Under the pieces are notes generated by a model, which had not been told where the DNA came from, did not search any database, and worked only from the letters and a program-made list of their open reading frames with translations. This document shows positions 1,009 to 12,415 of a stretch of DNA of 12,415 bases, piece by piece (the first letter of the stretch is position 1; every line of letters starts with the position of its first letter). The position numbers and the translations under genes were made by a program. The DNA comes from a virus (Duplodnaviria; Heunggongvirae; Uroviricota; Caudoviricetes): the IMG/VR virus record IMGVR_UViG_2609459834_000014. One strand, written 5' to 3'.

Positions 1009-1081
1009 GTCCTCTTAGTTAAATGGATATAACGAGCCCCTCCTAAGGGCTAATTGCAGGTTCGATTCCTGCAGGGGACAC
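1009..1081 (+). tRNA. argW: tRNA-Arg (anticodon CCT)
   Basis: Cloverleaf read by hand. Acceptor GTCCTCT (1009-1015) pairs with AGGGGAC (1073-1079); anticodon stem AGCCC/GGGCT flanks loop CTCCTAA with U33-CCT-A37; T-arm GCAGG-TTCGATT-CCTGC; discriminator A at 1080. The sequence then reads CTTT, so a full CCA is not encoded at this junction. Confidence 0.9.
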
Positions 1082-3556: not shown

Positions 3557-3772
3557 ATGACATTAAAAACTTATCCTATCACTGGACATGCCCGCCCACG
3601 AGCTACTGCTGACTTTTTGCAAATAAGTACGGTTACTCTCTGGCGCTGGGAAAAGAACAATCCTGAATTTCCCAAATCTATACGCATTTCAAAACGGGTA
3701 TCTGTTTACGATGCACAAGAAATTAGGCAGTGGGTTAAAGCTCAATCAGCAGGATTGGAGGAAGTAGTGTAA
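3557..3772 (+). CDS. alpA: AlpA-family phage transcriptional regulator (helix-turn-helix; excision/activation control)
   Basis: 71-aa ORF. The segment FLQISTVTLWRWEKNNPEFPKSIRISKRVSVYDAQEIRQWV matches the AlpA/Vis-type HTH pattern (x-T-hy-Y/W-x-W ... FPK ... V-x-W ... EI-x-W). Position right after the integrase module is typical. Confidence 0.8.
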   Translation: MTLKTYPITGHARPRATADFLQISTVTLWRWEKNNPEFPKSIRISKRVSVYDAQEIRQWVKAQSAGLEEVV

Positions 3773-4132: not shown

Positions 4133-4309
4133 ATGGCTAAACAGAAGTGTACCTGGTTATTTGCGGCGATCAACCGCAGTCAACGTAATGCCCGTCCGGT
4201 GATGTTAAGGATCACCGCAGATAACGAGCGATCAGCGCGGCGCAGACTTGCCCCGGACTATGTACTGAGCTTTGCCGGGCGCATTCCCTGCGGAGGTGAA
4301 CATGCGTAA
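4133..4309 (+). CDS. Small Icd-like (phage cell-division-inhibitor family) protein, 58 aa
   Basis: ATG at 4133 preceded by GAGG (4121-4124). The translation MAKQKCTWLFAAINRSQRNARPVMLRITADNERSARRRLAPDYVLSFAGRIPCGGEHA resembles, from memory, the short Icd-like proteins found in P4-like satellites. The ORF track extends it to an upstream GTG at 4079. Confidence 0.5.
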   Translation: MAKQKCTWLFAAINRSQRNARPVMLRITADNERSARRRLAPDYVLSFAGRIPCGGEHA

Positions 4310-4977: not shown

Positions 4978-5357
4978 ACCAGCCGCAGGTTTCCATTTTC
5001 CCGGCAGAAATGACCACCGCGCTTTACCGGCGGGCTATTGCTTCAGCATGGCGGCAGAAAATGCTGAACGAAACTGGCAATGATCAGTATGGTCCGCACA
5101 GCCTGACGGTGGAGCGTATTGAAATGGCCATTGCGCTGCATATCGAGTGCGCACTGATTAACGAGTACGGCGAAGCACAGGGCGCCGCTGCCGCGCTGGC
5201 ACTGCTAACTGACATGCTGGAGCCGTCACTGCTGACCGCGCCGCCGGTACTGACCGCGCGCGGTTGTGAAGTAATGGCGGAGATGTACCGCACGCTTCCG
5301 GCGGCCTTTGATGACTTCTGCAGTACCGGTGTGACGTTGTATCAGGGGGAAGTATGA
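4974..5357 (+). CDS. Hypothetical satellite protein, 127 aa
   Basis: ATG at 4974 preceded by GGAGGTG (4963-4969); 4-nt ATGA overlap with the preceding ORF, and its stop overlaps the primase start. Confidence 0.6.
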   Translation: MNQPQVSIFPAEMTTALYRRAIASAWRQKMLNETGNDQYGPHSLTVERIEMAIALHIECALINEYGEAQGAAAALALLTDMLEPSLLTAPPVLTARGCEVMAEMYRTLPAAFDDFCSTGVTLYQGEV

Positions 5358-8026
5358 CAATACAGACGGTTACGCAGATTTCAGCCGCCGCACGGGGGAA
5401 ATGGCCCGTTATTCTCCAGATGCTGCGTATTGATGTACCTGAAAACGGCAGGCACGGTCCCTGCCCGAAATGTGGGGGCAAGGATCGTTTTCGCCTTGAT
5501 GACCTTGACGGGCGCGGGACGTGGATCTGCAGCCAGTGTGGCAATGGTGACGGTCTGGATCTGGTTAAGCTCGTAACCGGTTACAGCGTCAGAAAGGCTG
5601 CGCAGGAGGTGGCGCAGGTGCTTAATGTGCCGGATGTGCAGGAACTGCCTGTTAAGCCTGCCAGACAAAAAGCCCCTAAACGCGACATGGGGCTTACCGT
5701 GGCGGCGCTGATGAAAGAGAGCCACACGGGAGAAAGCGCCTATCTGACAGGAAAAGGGTTCGCCGGATACCCGGCCTCTCTGACCGGAAGCGTGCAGCAT
5801 ATCAGCGGTAAGGATTTTCCTGCCGGTTCCCTGCTGTTACCACTCACGACCAACACCGGAGCCGTGACCGGTGCACAGCTTATCGCCCCGACGGGTGAAA
5901 AAAGCATACTGCCCGGCAGCACGATGAAAGGCGCGTTTGTGTCGCTCAGCCCGTTACCGTCTGAACCACCGGTACAGGTGGTGATTACCGAAGGTTACGC
6001 TACGGCGCTGACGGTAAGTCAGCTCACTGCCGGATGCGTAGTGGCTGCCATATCTGCGGGCAACCTGCCCAATGTGGCGCAGTCGCTGCGGGCACGCTGG
6101 CCTGAGGTAAAAATTATCATCGCCGGTGATAACGATTTTCAGGACGGAGGTGAGAATCCCGGCAGAGCCTTTGCTGAACGGGCGGCAAAAGCTGTTGGCG
6201 GCTGGATGACGCTGCCACCAGGAGAGATTAAGGCTGACTGGAATGACTTTCATCGGGAGCACGGTATTACCCGTGCCCGTGAAGCCTTTCGCAACGGTCT
6301 GGTACTGTGCGGGGAAGGCCGCACGCAACTGCCGCACGGGTTCCGTCTTACCCAGGAATATCTCTGGTATGAAAAGCAGGTACAGCGCAACGGTGAGACG
6401 GAGATCCAGAACGTCAAAATATGCAGCCCGCTGCGCGTGACGGCAATCACCTGCGATGCCGATGGCGGTAACTTCGGACGACTGCTGGAATGGGAAGATA
6501 CGTGGGGTGAGTGTCGCCGCTGGGCGATGCCGATGGAAATGCTGAGCGGCAGTGGTGAGGAACTGCGCCGGGTACTGCTGGTTAACGGGCTGTCTTATAT
6601 CAGCACCACCGGTGAGGCACGCGCACGCCTGATGGAATATATCTCACTGTGTAAACCGGAACGCCGCGTGACCTGCGTCAGTCGTACTGGCTGGCATGGT
6701 CAGGTTTACGTCCTGCAGGATGAGGTCAGCGGTGAAGGTGCAGAGGGTGTCATTCTCCAGACCACTTCCGTGCAGGGGCGTGATTTCCGCGTGTCGGGCA
6801 CAACAGAGGAATGGCGGGAGCATGTATCCCGCTACTGTACCGGCAACTCCCGCGTGGCATTTGCTGTCAGCCTGGCCTTTGCTGCACCACTGTTACGGCT
6901 GGTTGGTATGGACGGCGGCGGCTACCACCTCAAAGGGGAATCGACAGACGGTAAGACCACCACCATGAAAGCGGCAACCTCCGTCTGCGGCGGGCCTGAC
7001 TACTGGCAGACATGGCGGGCCACCGGCAACGCGCTGGAGGGATGCGCCAGCCGCCGCAACGATGCCGCCATGATGCTTGATGAGATCCGGGAAGTTGACG
7101 GACGCGAGGCAGGCAATATCGCCTACATGCTGGCAAACGGTCAGGGCAAGGGCCGTGCCGGTACGGACGGTGAGCTGCGTACCCGTAAGCAGTGGCGCCT
7201 GTTGTTCTTTTCAACTGGCGAGTTGTCTCTGACCGAACATGCGGCAAAGGCCGGTGAGCGTACTTTTGCCGGGATGGAAGTCAGGATGATCCAGATCCCC
7301 AGCGATTCCGGGAAGTTTGGCGTTTTTGAGGAGCTGCACGGCTTCGACAGCGGCAAGGCTCTGGCAGAGCATCTTGAATGGGCCACGTCCTGCTACTACG
7401 GTTCGCCGTTCCGGGAGTGGCTGAAAGCACTGACCGCTGATCTTAACGGACTAACGGCACAGGCAAAATCGCTGATGAAGGAATATGCTGCCGCCCTGAC
7501 TCCGAAAGATGCAGGCAATCAGGTGGGCCGGGCTGTGAACCGCTTTGCTCTGGTGGCGATGGCAGGTGAACTGGCAACCCGTCTGGGTATCACCGGCTGG
7601 CCTGAGGGTGAAGCACTGCGGGCAACCCGCGTCTGCCTGAACGCATGGCTGAAAGATCGCGGGCACACCGCCAATCAGGAAGATATCGCCGCACTGGAGC
7701 AGGTTCGCAGTTTCTTTACCGCGAATCAGTACAGCCGCTTTGCAGACTGGTATGACGAGCGCAACCGCCCCGGCAATATGGTGGGCTGGCGCAGGGTGGA
7801 GAAAGGCAGTACCGCGCAGGGCACGGAAGCTGTCACTACGTTCTATGTCATGCCGTCCGGCTGGAAAGAAATCTGCAGGGGATTTGACCCGCGCAAGGTG
7901 GCGCGTCTGTGCGCAGATCGTGGATACCTGCTGCCCTCCACTGATGGCAAACTCCAGACAACCATTCGCCCGCCAGAGATGAATCCCCGCAGGCTCTATG
8001 TCTTCAACAGCGAGGTGCCGGGTTAA
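5354..8026 (+). CDS. Primase-helicase (P4 alpha-like replication protein: zinc ribbon, TOPRIM primase, Walker-A NTPase)
   Basis: 890-aa ORF, ATG at 5354 after a GGGGGAAG tract. N-terminal Cys4 ribbon (CPKCGG...CSQCG). TOPRIM signature with a conserved Glu (VVITEGYATAL) and acidic DxD cluster (IIAGDNDFQD). Walker A GESTDGKTT further downstream. Followed immediately by an iteron array. Confidence 0.9.
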   Translation: MTIQTVTQISAAARGKWPVILQMLRIDVPENGRHGPCPKCGGKDRFRLDDLDGRGTWICSQCGNGDGLDLVKLVTGYSVRKAAQEVAQVLNVPDVQELPVKPARQKAPKRDMGLTVAALMKESHTGESAYLTGKGFAGYPASLTGSVQHISGKDFPAGSLLLPLTTNTGAVTGAQLIAPTGEKSILPGSTMKGAFVSLSPLPSEPPVQVVITEGYATALTVSQLTAGCVVAAISAGNLPNVAQSLRARWPEVKIIIAGDNDFQDGGENPGRAFAERAAKAVGGWMTLPPGEIKADWNDFHREHGITRAREAFRNGLVLCGEGRTQLPHGFRLTQEYLWYEKQVQRNGETEIQNVKICSPLRVTAITCDADGGNFGRLLEWEDTWGECRRWAMPMEMLSGSGEELRRVLLVNGLSYISTTGEARARLMEYISLCKPERRVTCVSRTGWHGQVYVLQDEVSGEGAEGVILQTTSVQGRDFRVSGTTEEWREHVSRYCTGNSRVAFAVSLAFAAPLLRLVGMDGGGYHLKGESTDGKTTTMKAATSVCGGPDYWQTWRATGNALEGCASRRNDAAMMLDEIREVDGREAGNIAYMLANGQGKGRAGTDGELRTRKQWRLLFFSTGELSLTEHAAKAGERTFAGMEVRMIQIPSDSGKFGVFEELHGFDSGKALAEHLEWATSCYYGSPFREWLKALTADLNGLTAQAKSLMKEYAAALTPKDAGNQVGRAVNRFALVAMAGELATRLGITGWPEGEALRATRVCLNAWLKDRGHTANQEDIAALEQVRSFFTANQYSRFADWYDERNRPGNMVGWRRVEKGSTAQGTEAVTTFYVMPSGWKEICRGFDPRKVARLCADRGYLLPSTDGKLQTTIRPPEMNPRRLYVFNSEVPG

Positions 8027-8053
8027 GGCTTTGCGTGAGTCTTATTTATTAAG

Positions 8054-8248
8054 GGTAACAGGTGAAACAGGTGGAACAACCGTATTTTACAGGGCTGAAC
8101 CTGTTCCACCTTCTGAAATAGTGAGGTGGAACAGATGTAACGCCAGCCAATCCGCTGTTCCACCTTGTTACCCGCGATGTTCCACCGGTGCAGTGTATAT
8201 AAATTCCTTATAAAACAAAGCTGTAACACATGTTTCACCTGTTCCACC
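8054..8248. repeat. Iteron cluster, probable satellite origin of replication
   Basis: Eight copies of the 9-mer TGTT(C/T)CACC or its complement GGTG(G/A)AACA: 8061-8069, 8070-8078, 8102-8110, 8125-8133, 8156-8164, 8178-8186, 8231-8239, 8240-8248. Related GGTAACA/TGTTACC copies at 8054-8060 and 8166-8172, and an AT-rich tract at 8192-8220. The motif is close to the TGTTCACC iterons I recall for the P4 origin. Confidence 0.7.
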
Positions 8249-8426
8249 GCATCAGGGACATAAAGCAGACTGAAACAGAGGGCATTTTTATCTGGCTGGC
8301 TTTCATAGCCACGTCTGAATAACCGCAAGCGCCCGTTGTGCCAGCCACCACACACTGAACACCGATAGTGTGCTTGTGTCAGCCACGACACAATTGACGT
8401 AACGAACCAACCCGACAGGAGAAGTC

Positions 8427-9170
8427 ATGAACAACACCGCAGTAAATAACAACCTTTCCACTTTTCCGGCTGTAACGCAGCGGGCACTGGAAACCATGAA
8501 CACAGCCAGAAACGCATGGCTTGAAGCACGTCGTCAGCAGAAAGCGGCAGCGGATAATATTGCGACAATCCGCCAGCGTCGCGCTGAAATGGAAGCCACG
8601 ACGAACACACTGAATGAGGAGTGGCGCACGCTGTTTCGTGAAAGTCAGGGCGTGGTCTCAAAGGAAATGAAAAAACTGCGCACGGAAATTGCGCTGGGAC
8701 GAGAAACGCTTGAGGATTTTGATGAGCTGCTGGCGGCTCAGGAAAGCGAAAATGCACTTTTGCCGCAGAAAGCTGCAGAATTAGCCGGAAAGTATATCCA
8801 CGCGCATAACATTCTTGTGGATATTCGCGCAAAACAAATCTGGGAGGATTTTATGCAGTCGCATGGAAAAGCGCTTATTCAGACGCTGAGCCTGCTTAAA
8901 TCCACAATGGGCCGGGAAGCCAGTGCCGTTGTGGGTGTGGTGAATTCAGTTAATGACCCGGACACAGTGCTGAAAGACTTTATTCATAAACATATCACCA
9001 GACCGGCTCTGGCTAACGATGCGATGCCTGAGCAGGACCCGGTGTTTAAACTGGCGGGAGTTGCCCCGGATTATGCGGCGCGTCTGGATTTCAGTAATCA
9101 ACTCTCTCCGGCAGCTATGCATAAAATTAAGGTTCGTCAGGAACTTGCTGAGAAGGAGAAAGCAGTATGA
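8427..9170 (+). CDS. Hypothetical satellite protein, 247 aa, helical and charge-rich
   Basis: ATG at 8427 with AGGAG (8417-8421) at 5-nt spacing. Composition rich in A/E/K/R/L suggests long helices. First gene of a three-gene co-directional unit that ends with the Ogr/Delta-like gene. Confidence 0.7.
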   Translation: MNNTAVNNNLSTFPAVTQRALETMNTARNAWLEARRQQKAAADNIATIRQRRAEMEATTNTLNEEWRTLFRESQGVVSKEMKKLRTEIALGRETLEDFDELLAAQESENALLPQKAAELAGKYIHAHNILVDIRAKQIWEDFMQSHGKALIQTLSLLKSTMGREASAVVGVVNSVNDPDTVLKDFIHKHITRPALANDAMPEQDPVFKLAGVAPDYAARLDFSNQLSPAAMHKIKVRQELAEKEKAV

Positions 9171-9718
9171 CGGCCCGAGGCACGCCTGACCAGGCACTTA
9201 CCAGTTTTCGGAATGCCCGTATTCTGTGGGCCGGACATAATGAGAGCCGAAAAGCCGTTGAACAACAGATAACATCTCTCCTCGCTGCCACAGAAAAACC
9301 AGCAGATTATGCCCGACAGCTCGAATTACTGCGGGAACGTCTGGATGTGCTGAAATGGCAAATTAACTGTGCTGCGCGCGAATGCATTTACTCGCAGCAT
9401 TTACTGATGGAGGCCTGCACAGAAGCCGCTCTCAGCAATTTTATGCAGGCGAATGGGGCAGCCCTGACATCTGCACTGGCTCCATTCCTGAAGGGGCGCG
9501 GAGGGGTTGACGTTGCGTCCCGTATATTACGCAGTGCTCTGGTTCGCCAGCTGGCAATAACACCGCCTGAAATTGCCGGGGATTATCGTGAGATCCTGGA
9601 TGAATCCGGTTTGATGCCTGACCCCGGGATGATTCGTGATTGCCAGGGTTCTTACACCCCGGCACAACATCTGCGTTTTCAGCAACGCCTGAATGACATT
9701 AACGATATACAGGAGTGA
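9167..9718 (+). CDS. Hypothetical satellite protein, 183 aa
   Basis: ATG at 9167 overlaps the upstream stop (ATGA); AGGAG at 9154-9158. Same composition as its neighbours. Confidence 0.65.
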   Translation: MTARGTPDQALTSFRNARILWAGHNESRKAVEQQITSLLAATEKPADYARQLELLRERLDVLKWQINCAARECIYSQHLLMEACTEAALSNFMQANGAALTSALAPFLKGRGGVDVASRILRSALVRQLAITPPEIAGDYREILDESGLMPDPGMIRDCQGSYTPAQHLRFQQRLNDINDIQE

Positions 9719-9723
9719 TATTA

Positions 9724-9996
9724 ATGGCACTTAAATGTCCGGAATGCGGTACAGTTGCACACGCCAGAACAGCAGCCTATGAAGCTCCGTCAGTTAAACG
9801 CTCGTGGTATCAGTGCCAGAATCTGGAATGTTCCTGCACATTTACGGCACTGGAGAGTGTGGATAAGATAATCATGAAACCCCGGCGCAATGAACAGCTA
9901 TCAGACAAAGCACAATCCCCGGAAAAACAACAGCAAACACTTAATCGCTATGGCTCCGCGTCAAAACTGTCAAGCCGTCAGCAGATTCCTGTCTGA
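9724..9996 (+). CDS. Ogr/Delta-family zinc-finger late-gene transcriptional activator
   Basis: ATG at 9724 with AGGAG (9711-9715) at 8-nt spacing. The N-terminus has the exact Ogr/Delta spacing Cys5-x2-Cys8-x22-Cys31-x4-Cys36 (MALKCPECG...YQCQNLEC) with a conserved HART-like tract (AHART). The GTG at 9715 in the ORF track lies inside the ribosome-binding site and is not the start. Confidence 0.8.
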   Translation: MALKCPECGTVAHARTAAYEAPSVKRSWYQCQNLECSCTFTALESVDKIIMKPRRNEQLSDKAQSPEKQQQTLNRYGSASKLSSRQQIPV

Positions 9997-10423: not shown

Positions 10424-12415
10424 ATGGCCATTCAAAAAAAACAAACAAAAAATTCTGAAAGAAGTATTAAAAGCCAGTTAGAAAAACTTACGGCTGAAAA
10501 AGCCATTTCCGAATATATTTGGAATGCTTTTGATGCTGAAGCCACAAATATTAATATTACAGTTATCCCAAATGGTTTAAGTGGGATATCTTCAATAGAA
10601 ATTATTGATGATGGAACTGGCATCGATTTTAATGAAGTCGATGAAACTTTCGGGCAGTTTTTAGATTCCAAGAAGAAAGCAAAACGAACGCCTGTCACAA
10701 GAGGACATAAAGGTAAGGGGCGGTTTTCATTCTGTAAATTCGCTGATAAAGCCGAATGGACTAGCTGGCGTAATGGAGAGAAATTTACGCTAACTATAGT
10801 TTCATCACATCTAAATGAATATGAGCATTCAGATTTATCCATGTGCTCTCATAAAAATTCTGGAACTAAGGTGGTCTTTAATCCTGTAACAATTACTGAA
10901 GATTATTTTAATTCAATAGTTATACCCTATTTGCAGAACGATATATCTTGGCTGTTGGTGGCCAAACCAAAATTAAAATTAAAAATAAACGGTCAATCTA
11001 TTAGCCCAATAGGATATGCTTCAACTTCAAATAATATTGAATTTGGAGAGGTCGATTTTAATTCGAAAACAGTTATATGGTCTAGTAAACCTGTAGTAGA
11101 AAAATCATATATATATTATTTAAATAATCAAGGTGATATTGTTTACAAAGAGTTTTCTGAGATGAACAAAAAAGGATTTGATTGTTCATCCTATGTCACA
11201 TCAAGTTGGTTTGATGATTTTTCTGAATCAAACGACTTGTTTAATGAATCGAAAAACAGTGTTGACTCAGATATTTTTAAATACATTAGTCTACATGTTA
11301 AAGGTAATTTAAGGGAAGAGTATAGAAAATATAAAAATAATGCGGCAGATCAACTCATTCAAAACTATTTAAATGAGGGTGTGTTTCCAGAATATAAAGG
11401 TGAGAATAGAATGCTCAATGAATTTAAAAGGAATCAACTCATTGAAACTATAAAGATAATTTATGAGGCCGAACCTCAAATTTTCTCCACACTAAACAAG
11501 AAACAAAAAAAAATCTTAATTAAACTATTAGATAGAATTGTTGAAACCAATAATTTATCCAGTCTCTTTGACATTTTTGAAGGTATAGTTTCCCTATCCG
11601 AAGATGAGGTTGATAAACTTTCATCTGTAATAAAAAGAAGTTCACTTTCTAATATTACGAGGACTTTGTCATTTATTAATGATAGACTGGATGTTATTGA
11701 TTATTTTAAAAAAATACTATATGAGAAAAAGAAAGAATCATATGAAGTAAAGCACATTCAAAAGAGCATAGAAAATAATTTATGGCTTTTTGGAGAGCAA
11801 TACACTCTAGTTGCATCAGAAGATGATAAGTTTGATAAAGCTCTTAGAAAGTATCTGGAGAAGACTAAAGGTTTTAACGAAGCACATTATAATAAGTATA
11901 GTGTACAGCATCCAGATAAAAATAAAGAAATGGATATATTTGCAGCACAAAAAATAAAGCGTTACACTGAAAATAATGAAGAATATTTTCATTGCATTGT
12001 GATTGAATTAAAGAAACCAAGTATAAAACTCGGTGATGAAGAACTCGCACAAATAAAGTTATATAAAAATATAATATCTGCGACTGATGAATTTAAAGAC
12101 GATAATACAAAATGGGATTTTATTTTAGTGGGAAATGATATGTCTAATAGCAATATCACTGCTGCAAATTTATCATCAGATCTAGAAACGAATAAAATAC
12201 ATGGTGAGTTTGGCTTGGTTCAAAAAACAACAAATATGAAAATTTACGTCAAAACGTGGAAGCAAATTTTAAATGAGTATGATCTTAGATATAACGACCT
12301 GATCGATAAGCTTAAGTTGAAAGAGTTAGAAATTGCAGAAGATATGGGGCCTGATGAACTCACGGCAAAAATTTTAGAAAAAACGGCAAGACTTCCGACT
12401 TCGATACAGGCTTAG
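10424..12415 (+). CDS. GHKL (Bergerat-fold) ATPase-domain protein with a C-terminal PD-(D/E)xK-like signature; candidate anti-phage or accessory effector of unknown family
   Basis: 663-aa ORF, ATG at 10424 and stop at 12413-12415, which is the last codon of the window. About 30% G+C by eye. All three GHKL motifs are in order: N-box E30-x3-N34-x2-D37-A38 (EYIWNAFDA, from nt 10511), G1 box D62-D-G-T-G66 (nt 10607-10621), G2 box G94-HK-G97-K-G99 (nt 10703-10720). C-terminal D504 ... E528-L-K530 (EMDIF-x-IVIELKKP, nt 11933-12013) fits a PD-(D/E)xK core. Family and function are not recognised. Confidence 0.75.
   Translation: MAIQKKQTKNSERSIKSQLEKLTAEKAISEYIWNAFDAEATNINITVIPNGLSGISSIEIIDDGTGIDFNEVDETFGQFLDSKKKAKRTPVTRGHKGKGRFSFCKFADKAEWTSWRNGEKFTLTIVSSHLNEYEHSDLSMCSHKNSGTKVVFNPVTITEDYFNSIVIPYLQNDISWLLVAKPKLKLKINGQSISPIGYASTSNNIEFGEVDFNSKTVIWSSKPVVEKSYIYYLNNQGDIVYKEFSEMNKKGFDCSSYVTSSWFDDFSESNDLFNESKNSVDSDIFKYISLHVKGNLREEYRKYKNNAADQLIQNYLNEGVFPEYKGENRMLNEFKRNQLIETIKIIYEAEPQIFSTLNKKQKKILIKLLDRIVETNNLSSLFDIFEGIVSLSEDEVDKLSSVIKRSSLSNITRTLSFINDRLDVIDYFKKILYEKKKESYEVKHIQKSIENNLWLFGEQYTLVASEDDKFDKALRKYLEKTKGFNEAHYNKYSVQHPDKNKEMDIFAAQKIKRYTENNEEYFHCIVIELKKPSIKLGDEELAQIKLYKNIISATDEFKDDNTKWDFILVGNDMSNSNITAANLSSDLETNKIHGEFGLVQKTTNMKIYVKTWKQILNEYDLRYNDLIDKLKLKELEIAEDMGPDELTAKILEKTARLPTSIQA

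What the first reader, a model, noticed from the sequence alone, without database searches (positions are those of the whole stretch)
8054..8248. Eight-copy iteron array directly downstream of the primase gene
Seen in sequence: eight 9-mers TGTT(C/T)CACC / GGTG(G/A)AACA in both orientations within about 190 bp, two pairs directly abutting (8061-8078 and 8231-8248), plus an AT-rich tract at 8192-8220. Established knowledge: the P4 alpha protein binds TGTTCACC-type iterons at its origin. The motif here carries one extra C, which would indicate a distinct but related replicon specificity. The ORF track calls two ORFs across this region (7998..8213 + and 8023..8391 -) that are better explained as iteron DNA.
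Basis: partly seen in the sequence, partly recalled or inferred. Interest (0 to 1): 0.5.

Follow-up and report, generated by a model that had tools for sequence, protein, structure and literature searches.

The report
Replication origin of a P4-like satellite
The repeats are real and almost certainly form the replication origin of a P4-like phage satellite integrated in E. coli, but the protein that should bind them resembles the staphylococcal island (SaPI) initiator-helicases, not the DNA-binding part of the P4 alpha protein.

Summary
Observation confirmed. TGTTYCACC occurs 8 times, all within 8061-8248 (0.17 expected by chance).

The element is a P4-like satellite prophage at tRNA-Arg, with int, alpA, a primase-helicase, sid/psu-like genes and delta.

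About 45 related loci across Enterobacterales, plus one Geobacter locus, carry an array starting 23-45 bp after the primase-helicase stop in all but one locus. It has a conserved ~175-215 bp layout. The repeated word differs by lineage (GGTGGAACA, GGTGTAACA, GGGGTAACA, CTGGTAACA, GTGGATACA, TGTAGTACA and others) and changes at all copies together. This is the signature of iterons co-evolving with their binding protein.

Only the N-terminal primase of the 890-aa protein resembles P4 alpha. The helicase (DUF927) and the C-terminal winged helix match SaPIbov1 Rep and SCCmec Cch. Substitutions between close relatives with different iterons concentrate in that winged helix.

There is a single array, with no separate crr. 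So it works like a SaPI/PICI rep-adjacent origin sitting in a P4-type satellite. The resemblance to the P4 word TGTTCACC is not backed by any homology between the binding domains.

The two ORFs called across the region are spurious. No experiment exists. I rate it a new variant of a known kind, of moderate interest.

The parts
5354..8026 (+). Gene for the 890-aa primase-helicase-initiator. It has an N-terminal Zn-ribbon plus Toprim primase (P4-alpha-like), a DUF927 helicase, a helical linker and a C-terminal winged helix.
   Evidence: Pfam PF08273, PF13362 and PF06048. 38% identity to P4 alpha over aa 5-316 only. PDB sequence hits 8tch_A (4.5e-15) and 5dgk_A (2.9e-13).
7784..8005 (+). Coding region for the predicted C-terminal winged-helix domain (aa ~811-884). 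The recognition helix is aa 846-855 (PRKVARLCAD) and the wing is aa ~867-884. This is the proposed iteron-binding module.
8033..8050 (+). Conserved leader box GCGTGAGTCTTATTTATT, which is independent of iteron type. Its role is unknown.
   Evidence: TCYTAT lies 10-25 bp after the stop in 45 of 50 loci and 79 bp after it in L037 (46 of 50 in all), whatever the iteron word. It is invariant in the type A/B alignment.
8052..8078 (+). Left tandem block, read as GGTGGAACA on the plus strand: degenerate AGGGTAACA (8052-8060), GGTGAAACA (8061-8069) and GGTGGAACA (8070-8078).
   Evidence: The same 2-3-copy tandem block is present at this position in related loci.
8102..8110 (+). Iteron TGTTCCACC.
   Evidence: The position is conserved in nearly all the related arrays mapped.
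8125..8142 (+). Iteron GGTGGAACA (8125-8133) followed by a decayed copy GATGTAACG (8134-8142).
   Evidence: Six close relatives have the tandem AGGTGGAACAGGTGGAACG here.
8156..8186 (+). Iterons TGTTCCACC at 8156-8164 and 8178-8186, with a conserved TGTTACCC unit at 8166-8173 between them.
8190..8229 (.). AT-rich tract (GC 0.23-0.27), the proposed DNA-unwinding element. It includes a conserved GCTGTAACA at 8220-8228.
   Evidence: An AT-poor-in-GC minimum (GC 0.13-0.30) lies at the equivalent place, 144-186 bp after the stop, in 16 of the 24 arrays mapped; in 8 the minimum lies nearer the left end or is weak.
8231..8248 (+). Right tandem block TGTTTCACC TGTTCCACC, inverted relative to the left block.
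   Evidence: (I3).
8336..8392 (+). Two TGT-N12-ACA dyads (8337-8354 and 8375-8392). This is an Ogr/Delta-type late promoter for the sid/psu-like operon. It adjoins the origin but is not part of it.
   Evidence: Direct repeat D4. It aligns with the P4 region upstream of sid. Most TGT and ACA bases of the two dyads, and all six of the second dyad, are invariant in the type A/B alignment. The link between TGT-N12-ACA and Ogr/Delta is from my own knowledge.
8427..9996 (+). Downstream late operon: Sid/Psu-like gene (8427-9170), Psu (9167-9718) and an Ogr/Delta zinc finger (9715-9996). These genes define the element as P4-like.
   Evidence: Pfam Psu 1.8e-9 and 1e-44, Ogr_Delta 1e-15. RefSeq annotation of near-identical loci.

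Best explanation
The 8061-8248 array, together with its leader box and AT-rich tract (about 8033-8248), is the single vegetative replication origin of a P4-like satellite prophage. Proposed mechanism: the element's 890-aa primase-helicase binds the 9-bp iterons through its C-terminal winged helix. Several protomers assemble on one face of the DNA, because the non-abutting copies sit 2, 3 or 5 helical turns apart. The AT-rich tract melts, and the DUF927 (MCM-like) helicase loads itself as SaPI Rep proteins do. The fused Toprim domain then lays down primers for the host polymerase. What is shown: the repeats, their conserved position and geometry, the concerted change of the repeat word, the homology and fold of the protein, and the co-variation between the winged helix and the word. 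What is inferred: binding, melting, and initiation at this site.
For: (1) Non-random cluster: 8 hits against 0.17 expected, none elsewhere in the window, and only this cluster in the near-identical element with 9 kb flanks.
(2) In nearly every related locus found in genome contigs whose downstream DNA could be read (about 45 of 50; primase-helicase identity 58-100%), an array of a repeated 8-9-mer starts 23-45 bp after the stop codon (91 bp in L037). The layout is shared: 2-3 tandem copies, ~24 bp, one inverted copy, ~13 bp, 1-2 direct copies, 1-3 inverted copies, an AT-rich 25-30 bp, then 2-3 tandem inverted copies. A Geobacter DUF927 gene also has three tandem TGGTTACA copies plus inverted copies ~65 bp after its stop.
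(3) The word differs by lineage and changes in all copies together. In an alignment of type A and type B arrays (primases 91% identical), 58 of 64 iteron columns are invariant against 52 of 124 spacer columns (odds ratio 13, p=2e-11). Motif position 5 is uniform (T/A by strand) in the type-B group at all eight copies: it switches G/C to T/A completely at six, and the two window copies that read T at this position (8065, 8235) are variable within type A.
(4) The array follows the primase-helicase gene, not the downstream gene. The downstream gene is sid/psu-like here but appears Ogr/Delta-like, read from the start of its sequence, in L006, L012, L019, L020 and L023. Helicase-only homologues that lack the primase domain keep the array.
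(5) The protein is of the initiator-helicase type: sequence hits to SaPIbov1 Rep 8TCH and Cch 5DGK. The C-terminal model matches the same two structures and an oriT-bound protein, TcpK. In SaPIs, 6-12 iterons lie immediately downstream of rep, flank an AT-rich region and are bound by the C-terminal winged helix (PMC9371898). E. coli PICIs have the same layout, and it was shown to be functional for EcCICFT073 (PMC6092414).
(6) In four close pairs with different words, substitutions are 2.6-fold enriched in aa 843-884 (19/168 against 157/3382, p=7e-4). In twelve same-word pairs they are depleted there (14/504 against 521/9883). In three of those pairs, nucleotide identity dips locally at the 3' end of the primase gene plus the array.
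(7) Centre-to-centre spacings of 32, 23, 31, 22 and 53 bp equal 3.05, 2.19, 2.95, 2.10 and 5.05 helical turns.
Against: There is no experimental evidence for binding or initiation in this family. The AT-rich tract is off-centre, with six copies to its left and two to its right. The copies immediately flanking it point the same way, unlike the SaPI rule of opposed iterons on each side (PMC9371898). The co-variation test rests on only four independent pairs, and I fixed the region boundaries after I had already looked at the alignment. No single residue tracks the word: position 870 also varies within one word class, and L051 shares the window's word with a rather different helix and wing. Other small proteins of the element also differ between the pairs, so a different binding protein is not excluded. 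Three relatives (L039, L047, L056) have no array in the 500 bp after the gene.
Confidence: 0.78

Rival explanations
1. The array is an auxiliary cis element bound by the initiator but is not the start site. It would act like P4 crr (a replication enhancer) or as a copy-number or incompatibility 'handcuffing' site, with initiation happening elsewhere.
For: In P4 the iteron cluster directly downstream of alpha is crr, not ori. Iteron arrays in plasmids also serve copy control (my own knowledge; reviewed in PMC4980987, listed but not read).
Against: No second cluster of the word exists in the window or in the whole element with its flanks, so the initiator has no other visible target. The array carries its own AT-rich tract. 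Relative to the late promoter and sid, it also occupies the position of P4 ori: 179 bp from the last iteron to the sid-like ATG here, against 170 bp in P4.
Confidence: 0.1
2. The repeats are operators for a different DNA-binding protein of the element (for example AlpA or one of the small unknown proteins). They would control read-through from the early operon or expression of the late sid/psu operon.
For: The array lies between the early operon and the Delta/Ogr-type late promoter. Other genes of the element also differ between the compared pairs.
Against: The array stays attached to the primase-helicase gene when the downstream gene differs, and it persists in elements with a very different gene content, including a Geobacter locus. 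Divergence peaks at the 3' end of the primase gene plus the array. The late promoter is a separate, conserved block about 90 bp further downstream.
Confidence: 0.07
3. Chance repeats or coding sequence: the region encodes the 71-aa (+) or 122-aa (-) ORF, and the repeats are a by-product.
For: Both ORFs exist mechanically.
Against: 0 of 200 shuffles reach 8 matches. The ORFs have no significant Pfam match (the best, for the minus-strand ORF, is E=0.074, below threshold), are broken in a relative whose primase-helicase is 98% identical, and are absent in all other lineages. RefSeq does not annotate them. The conservation pattern follows the 9-mers, not codons.
Confidence: 0.01

Closest known systems
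SaPI origins and their Rep initiator-helicases, especially SaPIbov1 Rep (PDB 8TCH), and the related SCCmec Cch helicase (PDB 5DGK)
   Same: The helicase core is homologous, and so is the C-terminal linker plus winged helix. In both systems the origin lies immediately 3' of the initiator gene, is made of 6-12 short iterons in both orientations, and contains an AT-rich tract (PMC9371898).
   Different: The host is Gram-negative and the context is a P4-type satellite. The helicase is fused to a P4-alpha-like Zn-ribbon/Toprim primase. The iterons are 9 bp, not 5-6 bp. The AT tract is off-centre and the copies immediately flanking it are co-oriented. A conserved leader box precedes the array. Nothing has been tested experimentally.
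Bacteriophage P4 ori and crr with the alpha protein
   Same: Both are satellites with int, alpA-type, sid/psu and delta genes. The primase domain is homologous (38% identity). The repeat word is nearly the same (TGTTCACC against TGTTCCACC). Both have tandem and inverted copies around an AT-rich stretch. The array sits both downstream of the primase gene (like crr) and about 175 bp upstream of the sid start, with a Delta-type promoter in between (like ori).
   Different: The helicase and the origin-binding domain show no detectable homology to P4 alpha, and the P4 origin-binding domain is not among the listed fold hits. There is one array instead of ori plus crr 4.5 kb apart. No cluster of P4 octamers is present. 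No type II repeats were seen.
Gram-negative PICI replicons, for example EcCICFT073 pri-rep-ori (Fillol-Salom et al. 2018, PMC6092414)
   Same: This is also an E. coli satellite, with int, alpA, an Icd-like gene and a primase-type initiator transcribed rightwards. Its origin lies immediately 3' of the initiator, with two sets of iterons around an AT-rich region. Replication was shown to depend on rep and ori.
   Different: The EcCICFT073 initiator (584 aa) is not homologous to this protein. Its iterons are TGTCTACC/GGTAGAYA. That element has capsid genes rather than sid, psu and delta.

Membership tests
Rep-adjacent iteron origin of the SaPI/PICI type | Six to twelve short repeats immediately downstream of the initiator gene | tested here: met
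   Eight exact copies plus one decayed copy start 35 bp after the stop. The same holds in about 45 related loci.
Rep-adjacent iteron origin of the SaPI/PICI type | An AT-rich region with iterons on both sides | tested here: met
   8190-8229 has GC 0.23-0.27, with six copies to the left and two to the right. The arrangement is not symmetrical.
Rep-adjacent iteron origin of the SaPI/PICI type | [quoted passage not shown] | tested here: inconclusive
   The outermost tandem pairs (8061-8078 and 8231-8248) are inverted relative to each other. However, the copies next to the AT tract (8156, 8178 | 8231, 8240) point the same way.
Rep-adjacent iteron origin of the SaPI/PICI type | The initiator is a self-loading helicase with a C-terminal winged-helix domain | tested here: met
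   Sequence and fold matches to SaPIbov1 Rep and Cch, and to the oriT-bound protein TcpK. This rests on a predicted structure only.
Rep-adjacent iteron origin of the SaPI/PICI type | The initiator binds the iterons, and the origin supports initiator-dependent replication | not testable with these tools
   Only indirect support is available: the word and the winged helix co-vary.
P4 ori/crr system (alpha protein, type I iterons) | Type I octamer TGTTCACC in clusters | tested here: not met
   One isolated TGTTCACC at 4295, which is chance level. The array word is the 9-mer TGTTCCACC.
P4 ori/crr system (alpha protein, type I iterons) | Two cis elements (ori and crr) about 4.5 kb apart | tested here: not met
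   There is a single cluster in the window and in the full element with 9 kb flanks. P4 for comparison.
P4 ori/crr system (alpha protein, type I iterons) | An initiator homologous to alpha over its helicase and its C-terminal origin-binding domain | tested here: not met
   BLASTP aligns aa 5-316 only. hhalign of the C-terminal profile against the P4 alpha C-terminus gives probability 0.8%.
P4-like satellite (sense of Moura de Sousa and Rocha, PMC8628076) | Core gene set: int, alpA, primase (alpha), sid and/or psu, delta | tested here: met
   Pfam hits for integrase, AlpA, primase, Psu (two genes) and Ogr_Delta. RefSeq annotation of near-identical loci agrees. An epsilon homologue was not looked for.
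Classical iteron plasmid origins (RepA, pi, TrfA type) | Direct repeats of about 17-22 bp bound by a WH1-WH2 Rep protein, with DnaA boxes | tested here: not met
   The repeats are 9 bp and occur in both orientations. The initiator is a primase-helicase. DnaA boxes were not searched for systematically.

The most novel reading that the evidence does not exclude
The DUF927 primase-helicases of P4-like satellites and their origins may form a set of at least seven orthogonal specificity classes built on one fixed ~200-bp scaffold. A one-base change of the iteron word, spread to all copies, would be matched by a few substitutions in the winged helix, so that satellites sharing a cell replicate independently. 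Hints: type A and type B differ at a single motif position in every copy while the primases are 91% identical. In all three genomes that hold two such elements, the two carry different words: Pantoea stewartii L004/L046, Pantoea leporis L013/L052 and Enterobacter intestinihominis L012/L042. Three of three is not statistically significant.
Probability: 0.35. Interest if true: 0.55.

Novelty: new variant of a known kind. Interest (0 to 1): 0.4.

Why it matters
[quoted passage not shown] This particular replicon is in 337 of 5,426 complete E. coli genomes. Their replication is usually assumed to follow the P4 model of alpha, ori and crr. Here a large branch instead uses a chimeric initiator: a P4-type primase fused to a SaPI/SCCmec-type MCM-like helicase with a winged helix, and a single origin next to the gene. 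That links the replication modules of Gram-positive and Gram-negative satellites. It also gives a minimal one-protein, ~220-bp replicon that could be used in P4-based delivery vectors. Finally, it offers a natural series of matched initiator and iteron variants for working out how a winged helix reads a 9-bp word. None of this changes a general principle, and the organisation itself is already known from SaPIs and PICIs.

Tried and rejected
- A single specificity-determining residue: I listed columns that differ in at least 2 of 4 different-word pairs. Positions 846, 866-867, 870 and 878 recur. None tracks the word cleanly, and 870 also varies within a word class.
- L050/L051 as a fifth close pair: they are only 73% identical, too divergent to use.
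- Terminator and sigma-70 promoter scan of 7900-8500: no hits.
- Full-text search for TGTTCACC: it returned only unrelated primer sequences.
- The 1993 EMBO J paper on P4 alpha (PMC413647) is not held. Statements about alpha binding type I repeats therefore rest on the P4 GenBank annotation and my own knowledge.
- Look-up of the Aeromonas homologue P0134: not on record.
- EcCICFT073 as a possible already-characterised member of the same family: its initiator is not homologous.

Full report
**1.

The pattern TGTTYCACC occurs eight times in the 12,415-bp window. All eight lie between 8061 and 8248, against 0.17 expected from dinucleotide-preserving shuffles, and none of 200 shuffles reached eight. 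Allowing one mismatch adds only two scattered hits elsewhere.

Read on the plus strand, the order is:
- GGTGAAACA and GGTGGAACA, abutting, at 8061-8078
- TGTTCCACC at 8102
- GGTGGAACA at 8125
- TGTTCCACC at 8156 and at 8178
- an AT-rich tract
- TGTTTCACC and TGTTCCACC, abutting, at 8231-8248

The two outer pairs are inverted relative to each other. The AT-rich tract is real: GC is 0.23-0.27 in 30-bp windows between 8190 and 8229. Centre-to-centre distances between non-abutting copies are 32, 23, 31, 22 and 53 bp. These equal 3.05, 2.19, 2.95, 2.10 and 5.05 helical turns, so the sites lie on roughly one face of the helix.

The array begins 35 bp after the stop codon (8024-8026) of an 890-aa protein. 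That protein carries a primase zinc ribbon, a Toprim domain and DUF927.

**2. Context**

The window holds almost all of a P4-like satellite prophage:
- tRNA-Arg(CCT) at 1009-1081, next to yfdC
- an integrase (1208-2542)
- an AlpA-type regulator (3557-3772)
- small early genes, including a DUF5375 protein
- the primase-helicase (5354-8026)
- a Sid/Psu-like gene (8427-9170), Psu (9167-9718) and an Ogr/Delta zinc finger (9715-9996)
- a cargo ATPase (10424-12415)

The 551-bp stretch around the array is present in 337 of 5,426 complete E. coli genomes at 90% identity or more, almost always on the chromosome. RefSeq annotates no gene between the primase and the psu-like gene.

They are not preserved even in a relative whose primase-helicase is 98% identical, and they are absent in other lineages. 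They are artefacts of ORF calling.

**3. Comparative evidence that the repeats are functional iterons**

A scan of one genome per species found 55 loci that encode relatives of the primase-helicase. They share 58-100% identity and come from Enterobacterales such as Yersinia, Serratia, Proteus, Xenorhabdus, Pectobacterium, Rahnella and Pantoea.

In about 45 of the 50 loci that could be read downstream, the most frequent 8-mer in the 500 bp after the stop codon is a repeat present 4-12 times. The word depends on the lineage:
- GGTGGAACA: the window's group, and Serratia sp. Ag1
- GGTGTAACA: the group with 91% primase identity, Yersinia, one Xenorhabdus, one Proteus
- GGGGTAACA or TGGGTAACA
- CTGGTAACA: the largest group
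- GTGGTAACA
- GTGGATACA and GCGGTTACA
- TGTAGTACA: Rahnella

The geometry is largely conserved. The array starts 23-45 bp after the stop in all but one mapped locus (91 bp in L037) and spans 166-215 bp in most. Its layout is: two or three tandem copies, ~24 bp, one inverted copy, ~13 bp, one or two direct copies, one to three inverted copies, an AT-rich 25-30 bp (GC 0.13-0.30; at this place in 16 of the 24 arrays mapped), then two or three tandem inverted copies.

The cleanest case is the alignment of seven type A arrays with four type B arrays, whose primases are 91% identical. Within 8053-8248, 58 of 64 iteron columns are invariant, against 52 of 124 spacer columns (odds ratio 13, p = 2e-11). 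At motif position 5 all eight copies are uniform (T/A by strand) in the type-B group. Six copies switch completely from G/C to T/A. At the two copies that read T in the window (8065, 8235) the type-A group itself varies. Near-uniform parallel change at the same motif position, in separate sites, in a background where the spacers drift freely, is what a binding word under selection together with its reader should look like.

The same alignment shows two further details. The window has lost one copy: 8134-8142 reads GATGTAACG where six relatives have GGTGGAACG. And three GTAACA-type units, at 8052-8060, 8166-8173 and 8220-8228, are conserved in both groups.

A distant DUF927 gene in Geobacter grbiciae also has three tandem TGGTTACA copies, with inverted and degenerate copies, starting about 65 bp after its stop.

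The array follows the primase-helicase gene rather than the gene downstream. Here the downstream gene is sid/psu-like. In L006, L012, L019, L020 and L023 it looks Ogr/Delta-like, judged from the start of its sequence. Homologues of 689-693 aa that lack the primase domain still have arrays of 12-14 copies.

**4. What the protein is**

P4 alpha aligns only with residues 5-316, the zinc ribbon and Toprim primase, at 38% identity. Nothing beyond that aligns.

Against the PDB, the only sequence hits are SaPIbov1 Rep (8TCH, E = 4.5e-15) and SCCmec Cch (5DGK, E = 2.9e-13), both over the ATPase core.

I modelled residues 620-890 with a 52-sequence alignment. Mean pLDDT is 83, and block means are 95-98 over most of the last 60 residues. 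The model has a helical bundle followed by a beta-hairpin, two helices (834-840 and 846-855) and a two-stranded wing (869-871 and 879-884), which is a winged helix.

Fold searches gave:
- Foldseek: 8TCH (1.1e-4) and 5DGK (9.7e-4) as the only significant matches

The P4 alpha origin-binding domain did not appear among the listed fold hits. A profile comparison with the P4 alpha C-terminus was empty.

The protein is therefore a chimera: a P4-alpha-type primase fused to a SaPIbov1-Rep/Cch-type initiator-helicase.

For SaPIs, the literature states four things (PMC9371898). The origin lies immediately downstream of rep. It has six to twelve iterons around an AT-rich region. The C-terminal winged helix recognises the iterons. 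The Reps load themselves. For E. coli PICIs the same layout was described, and the EcCICFT073 pri-rep-ori segment was shown to replicate a plasmid (PMC6092414). That initiator, however, is not homologous to the one here, and its iterons are TGTCTACC.

**5. Link between the word and the winged helix**

Four pairs of close relatives (91-98% identical) use different words: window/L006, L025/L028, L023/L024 and L019/L020. In these pairs, 19 of 168 positions in residues 843-884 differ, against 157 of 3,382 elsewhere (2.6-fold, p = 7e-4). In twelve pairs of similar divergence that share a word, the region is depleted instead (14 of 504 against 521 of 9,883).

The recurrent positions are 846 (the N-cap of the recognition helix), 866-867, 870 and 878 (the wing).

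At the nucleotide level, three of the pairs show a local dip in identity exactly at the 3' end of the gene plus the array. In L025/L028, for example, identity runs 96, 92, 78, 90 percent in successive 200-bp windows.

Caveats apply. There are only four independent pairs. I set the region boundaries from the model after I had already seen the alignment. No residue gives a simple code.

**6. Relation to P4**

In P4, crr lies directly downstream of alpha, and ori lies between the early region and sid, about 170 bp upstream of the sid start. Both are made of TGTTCACC.

Here one array occupies both relative positions. It is 35 bp downstream of the primase gene and 179 bp upstream of the sid-like start. 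Two TGT-N12-ACA dyads (8337-8354 and 8375-8392) lie in between, and they align with the P4 region upstream of sid.

No second cluster exists in the element or in its 9-kb flanks, and the P4 octamer occurs once, at chance level.

The architecture and the primase are related to P4.

**7. Verdict**

The array is a genuine iteron cluster and very probably the satellite's only origin. It most likely works in the manner of SaPI and PICI rep-adjacent origins.

Remaining doubts:
- there is no experiment
- the position of the AT tract and the orientation of its flanking copies are atypical
- the array could be an auxiliary or copy-control site (about 0.1)
- a different protein could be the binder (about 0.07)

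I rate it a new variant of a known kind. It is of moderate interest as a compact chimeric replicon and as a natural series of matched initiator and iteron specificities.

Noticed in passing
window 8033-8050: A leader box, GCGTGAGTCTTATTTATT, sits just upstream of the first iteron. Its core TCYTAT lies 10-25 bp after the primase stop in 45 of 50 related loci, and 79 bp after it in L037, whatever the iteron word. It could be a loading or priming site, or a host-factor site. Its function is unknown.
   Followed up: partly
window 8336-8392: Two TGT-N12-ACA dyads lie 38 bp apart, upstream of the sid/psu-like gene. They align with the P4 region upstream of sid and are largely conserved between the type A and B groups. 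This is probably the Delta/Ogr-activated late promoter.
   Followed up: partly
window 8134-8142: A decayed iteron: GATGTAACG here, where six close relatives have GGTGGAACG. The window's array has one copy fewer than its relatives. The near-identical strain in L058 has also lost the last copy, with 7 exact matches.
   Followed up: yes
L004/L046, L013/L052, L012/L042: Three genomes carry two elements of this family: Pantoea stewartii ATCC 8199, Pantoea leporis R and Enterobacter intestinihominis. In each genome the two elements have different iteron words. This is a hint of orthogonal or incompatibility-like classes, but the sample is too small to test.
   Followed up: no
L050 3632-5701; L051 3614-5695: Homologues of 689-693 aa lack the zinc-ribbon/Toprim primase domain but keep the DUF927 helicase and the C-terminus. 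They are followed by arrays of 12-14 iterons. Whether a separate primase gene lies upstream was not checked.
   Followed up: no
L039, L047, L056 (downstream of the primase gene): In three relatives (58-62% identity), another gene begins about 25-35 bp after the stop of the primase-helicase gene, and there is no array in the next 500 bp. Where their origin lies is unknown.
   Followed up: no
window 10424-12415; L001 11492-14778: The slot after delta holds a 663-aa protein with HATPase_c_3 and an HSDR_N-like region here. In E. coli MB52, at the same position in an element carrying the same replication module and late genes, it holds the reverse-transcriptase defence genes drt3a and drt3b. This fits the known P4 defence hotspot.
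   Followed up: no
window 1009-1081; L058 22135-29724: The element is integrated at tRNA-Arg(CCT) next to yfdC. In strain PRO_A-1407-6W-A a second element lies in tandem just downstream, with an integrase, a rolling-circle replication protein and a SIR2 protein.
   Followed up: no
L060 3826-3936 (Geobacter grbiciae): A 420-aa DUF927 protein outside the Enterobacterales is followed by three tandem TGGTTACA copies plus inverted and degenerate copies. The gene-adjacent iteron rule may hold across the DUF927 family.
   Followed up: partly
L059 7000-7240 (E. coli CFT073, EcCICFT073): The experimentally validated PICI origin uses the repeats TGTCTACC/GGTAGAYA after a non-homologous 584-aa initiator. 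The TGT...ACC outline of the word recurs in P4, in EcCICFT073 and in this window, although the initiators here and in EcCICFT073 are not homologous and only the primase domain is shared with P4 alpha. I have no explanation for this.
   Followed up: no
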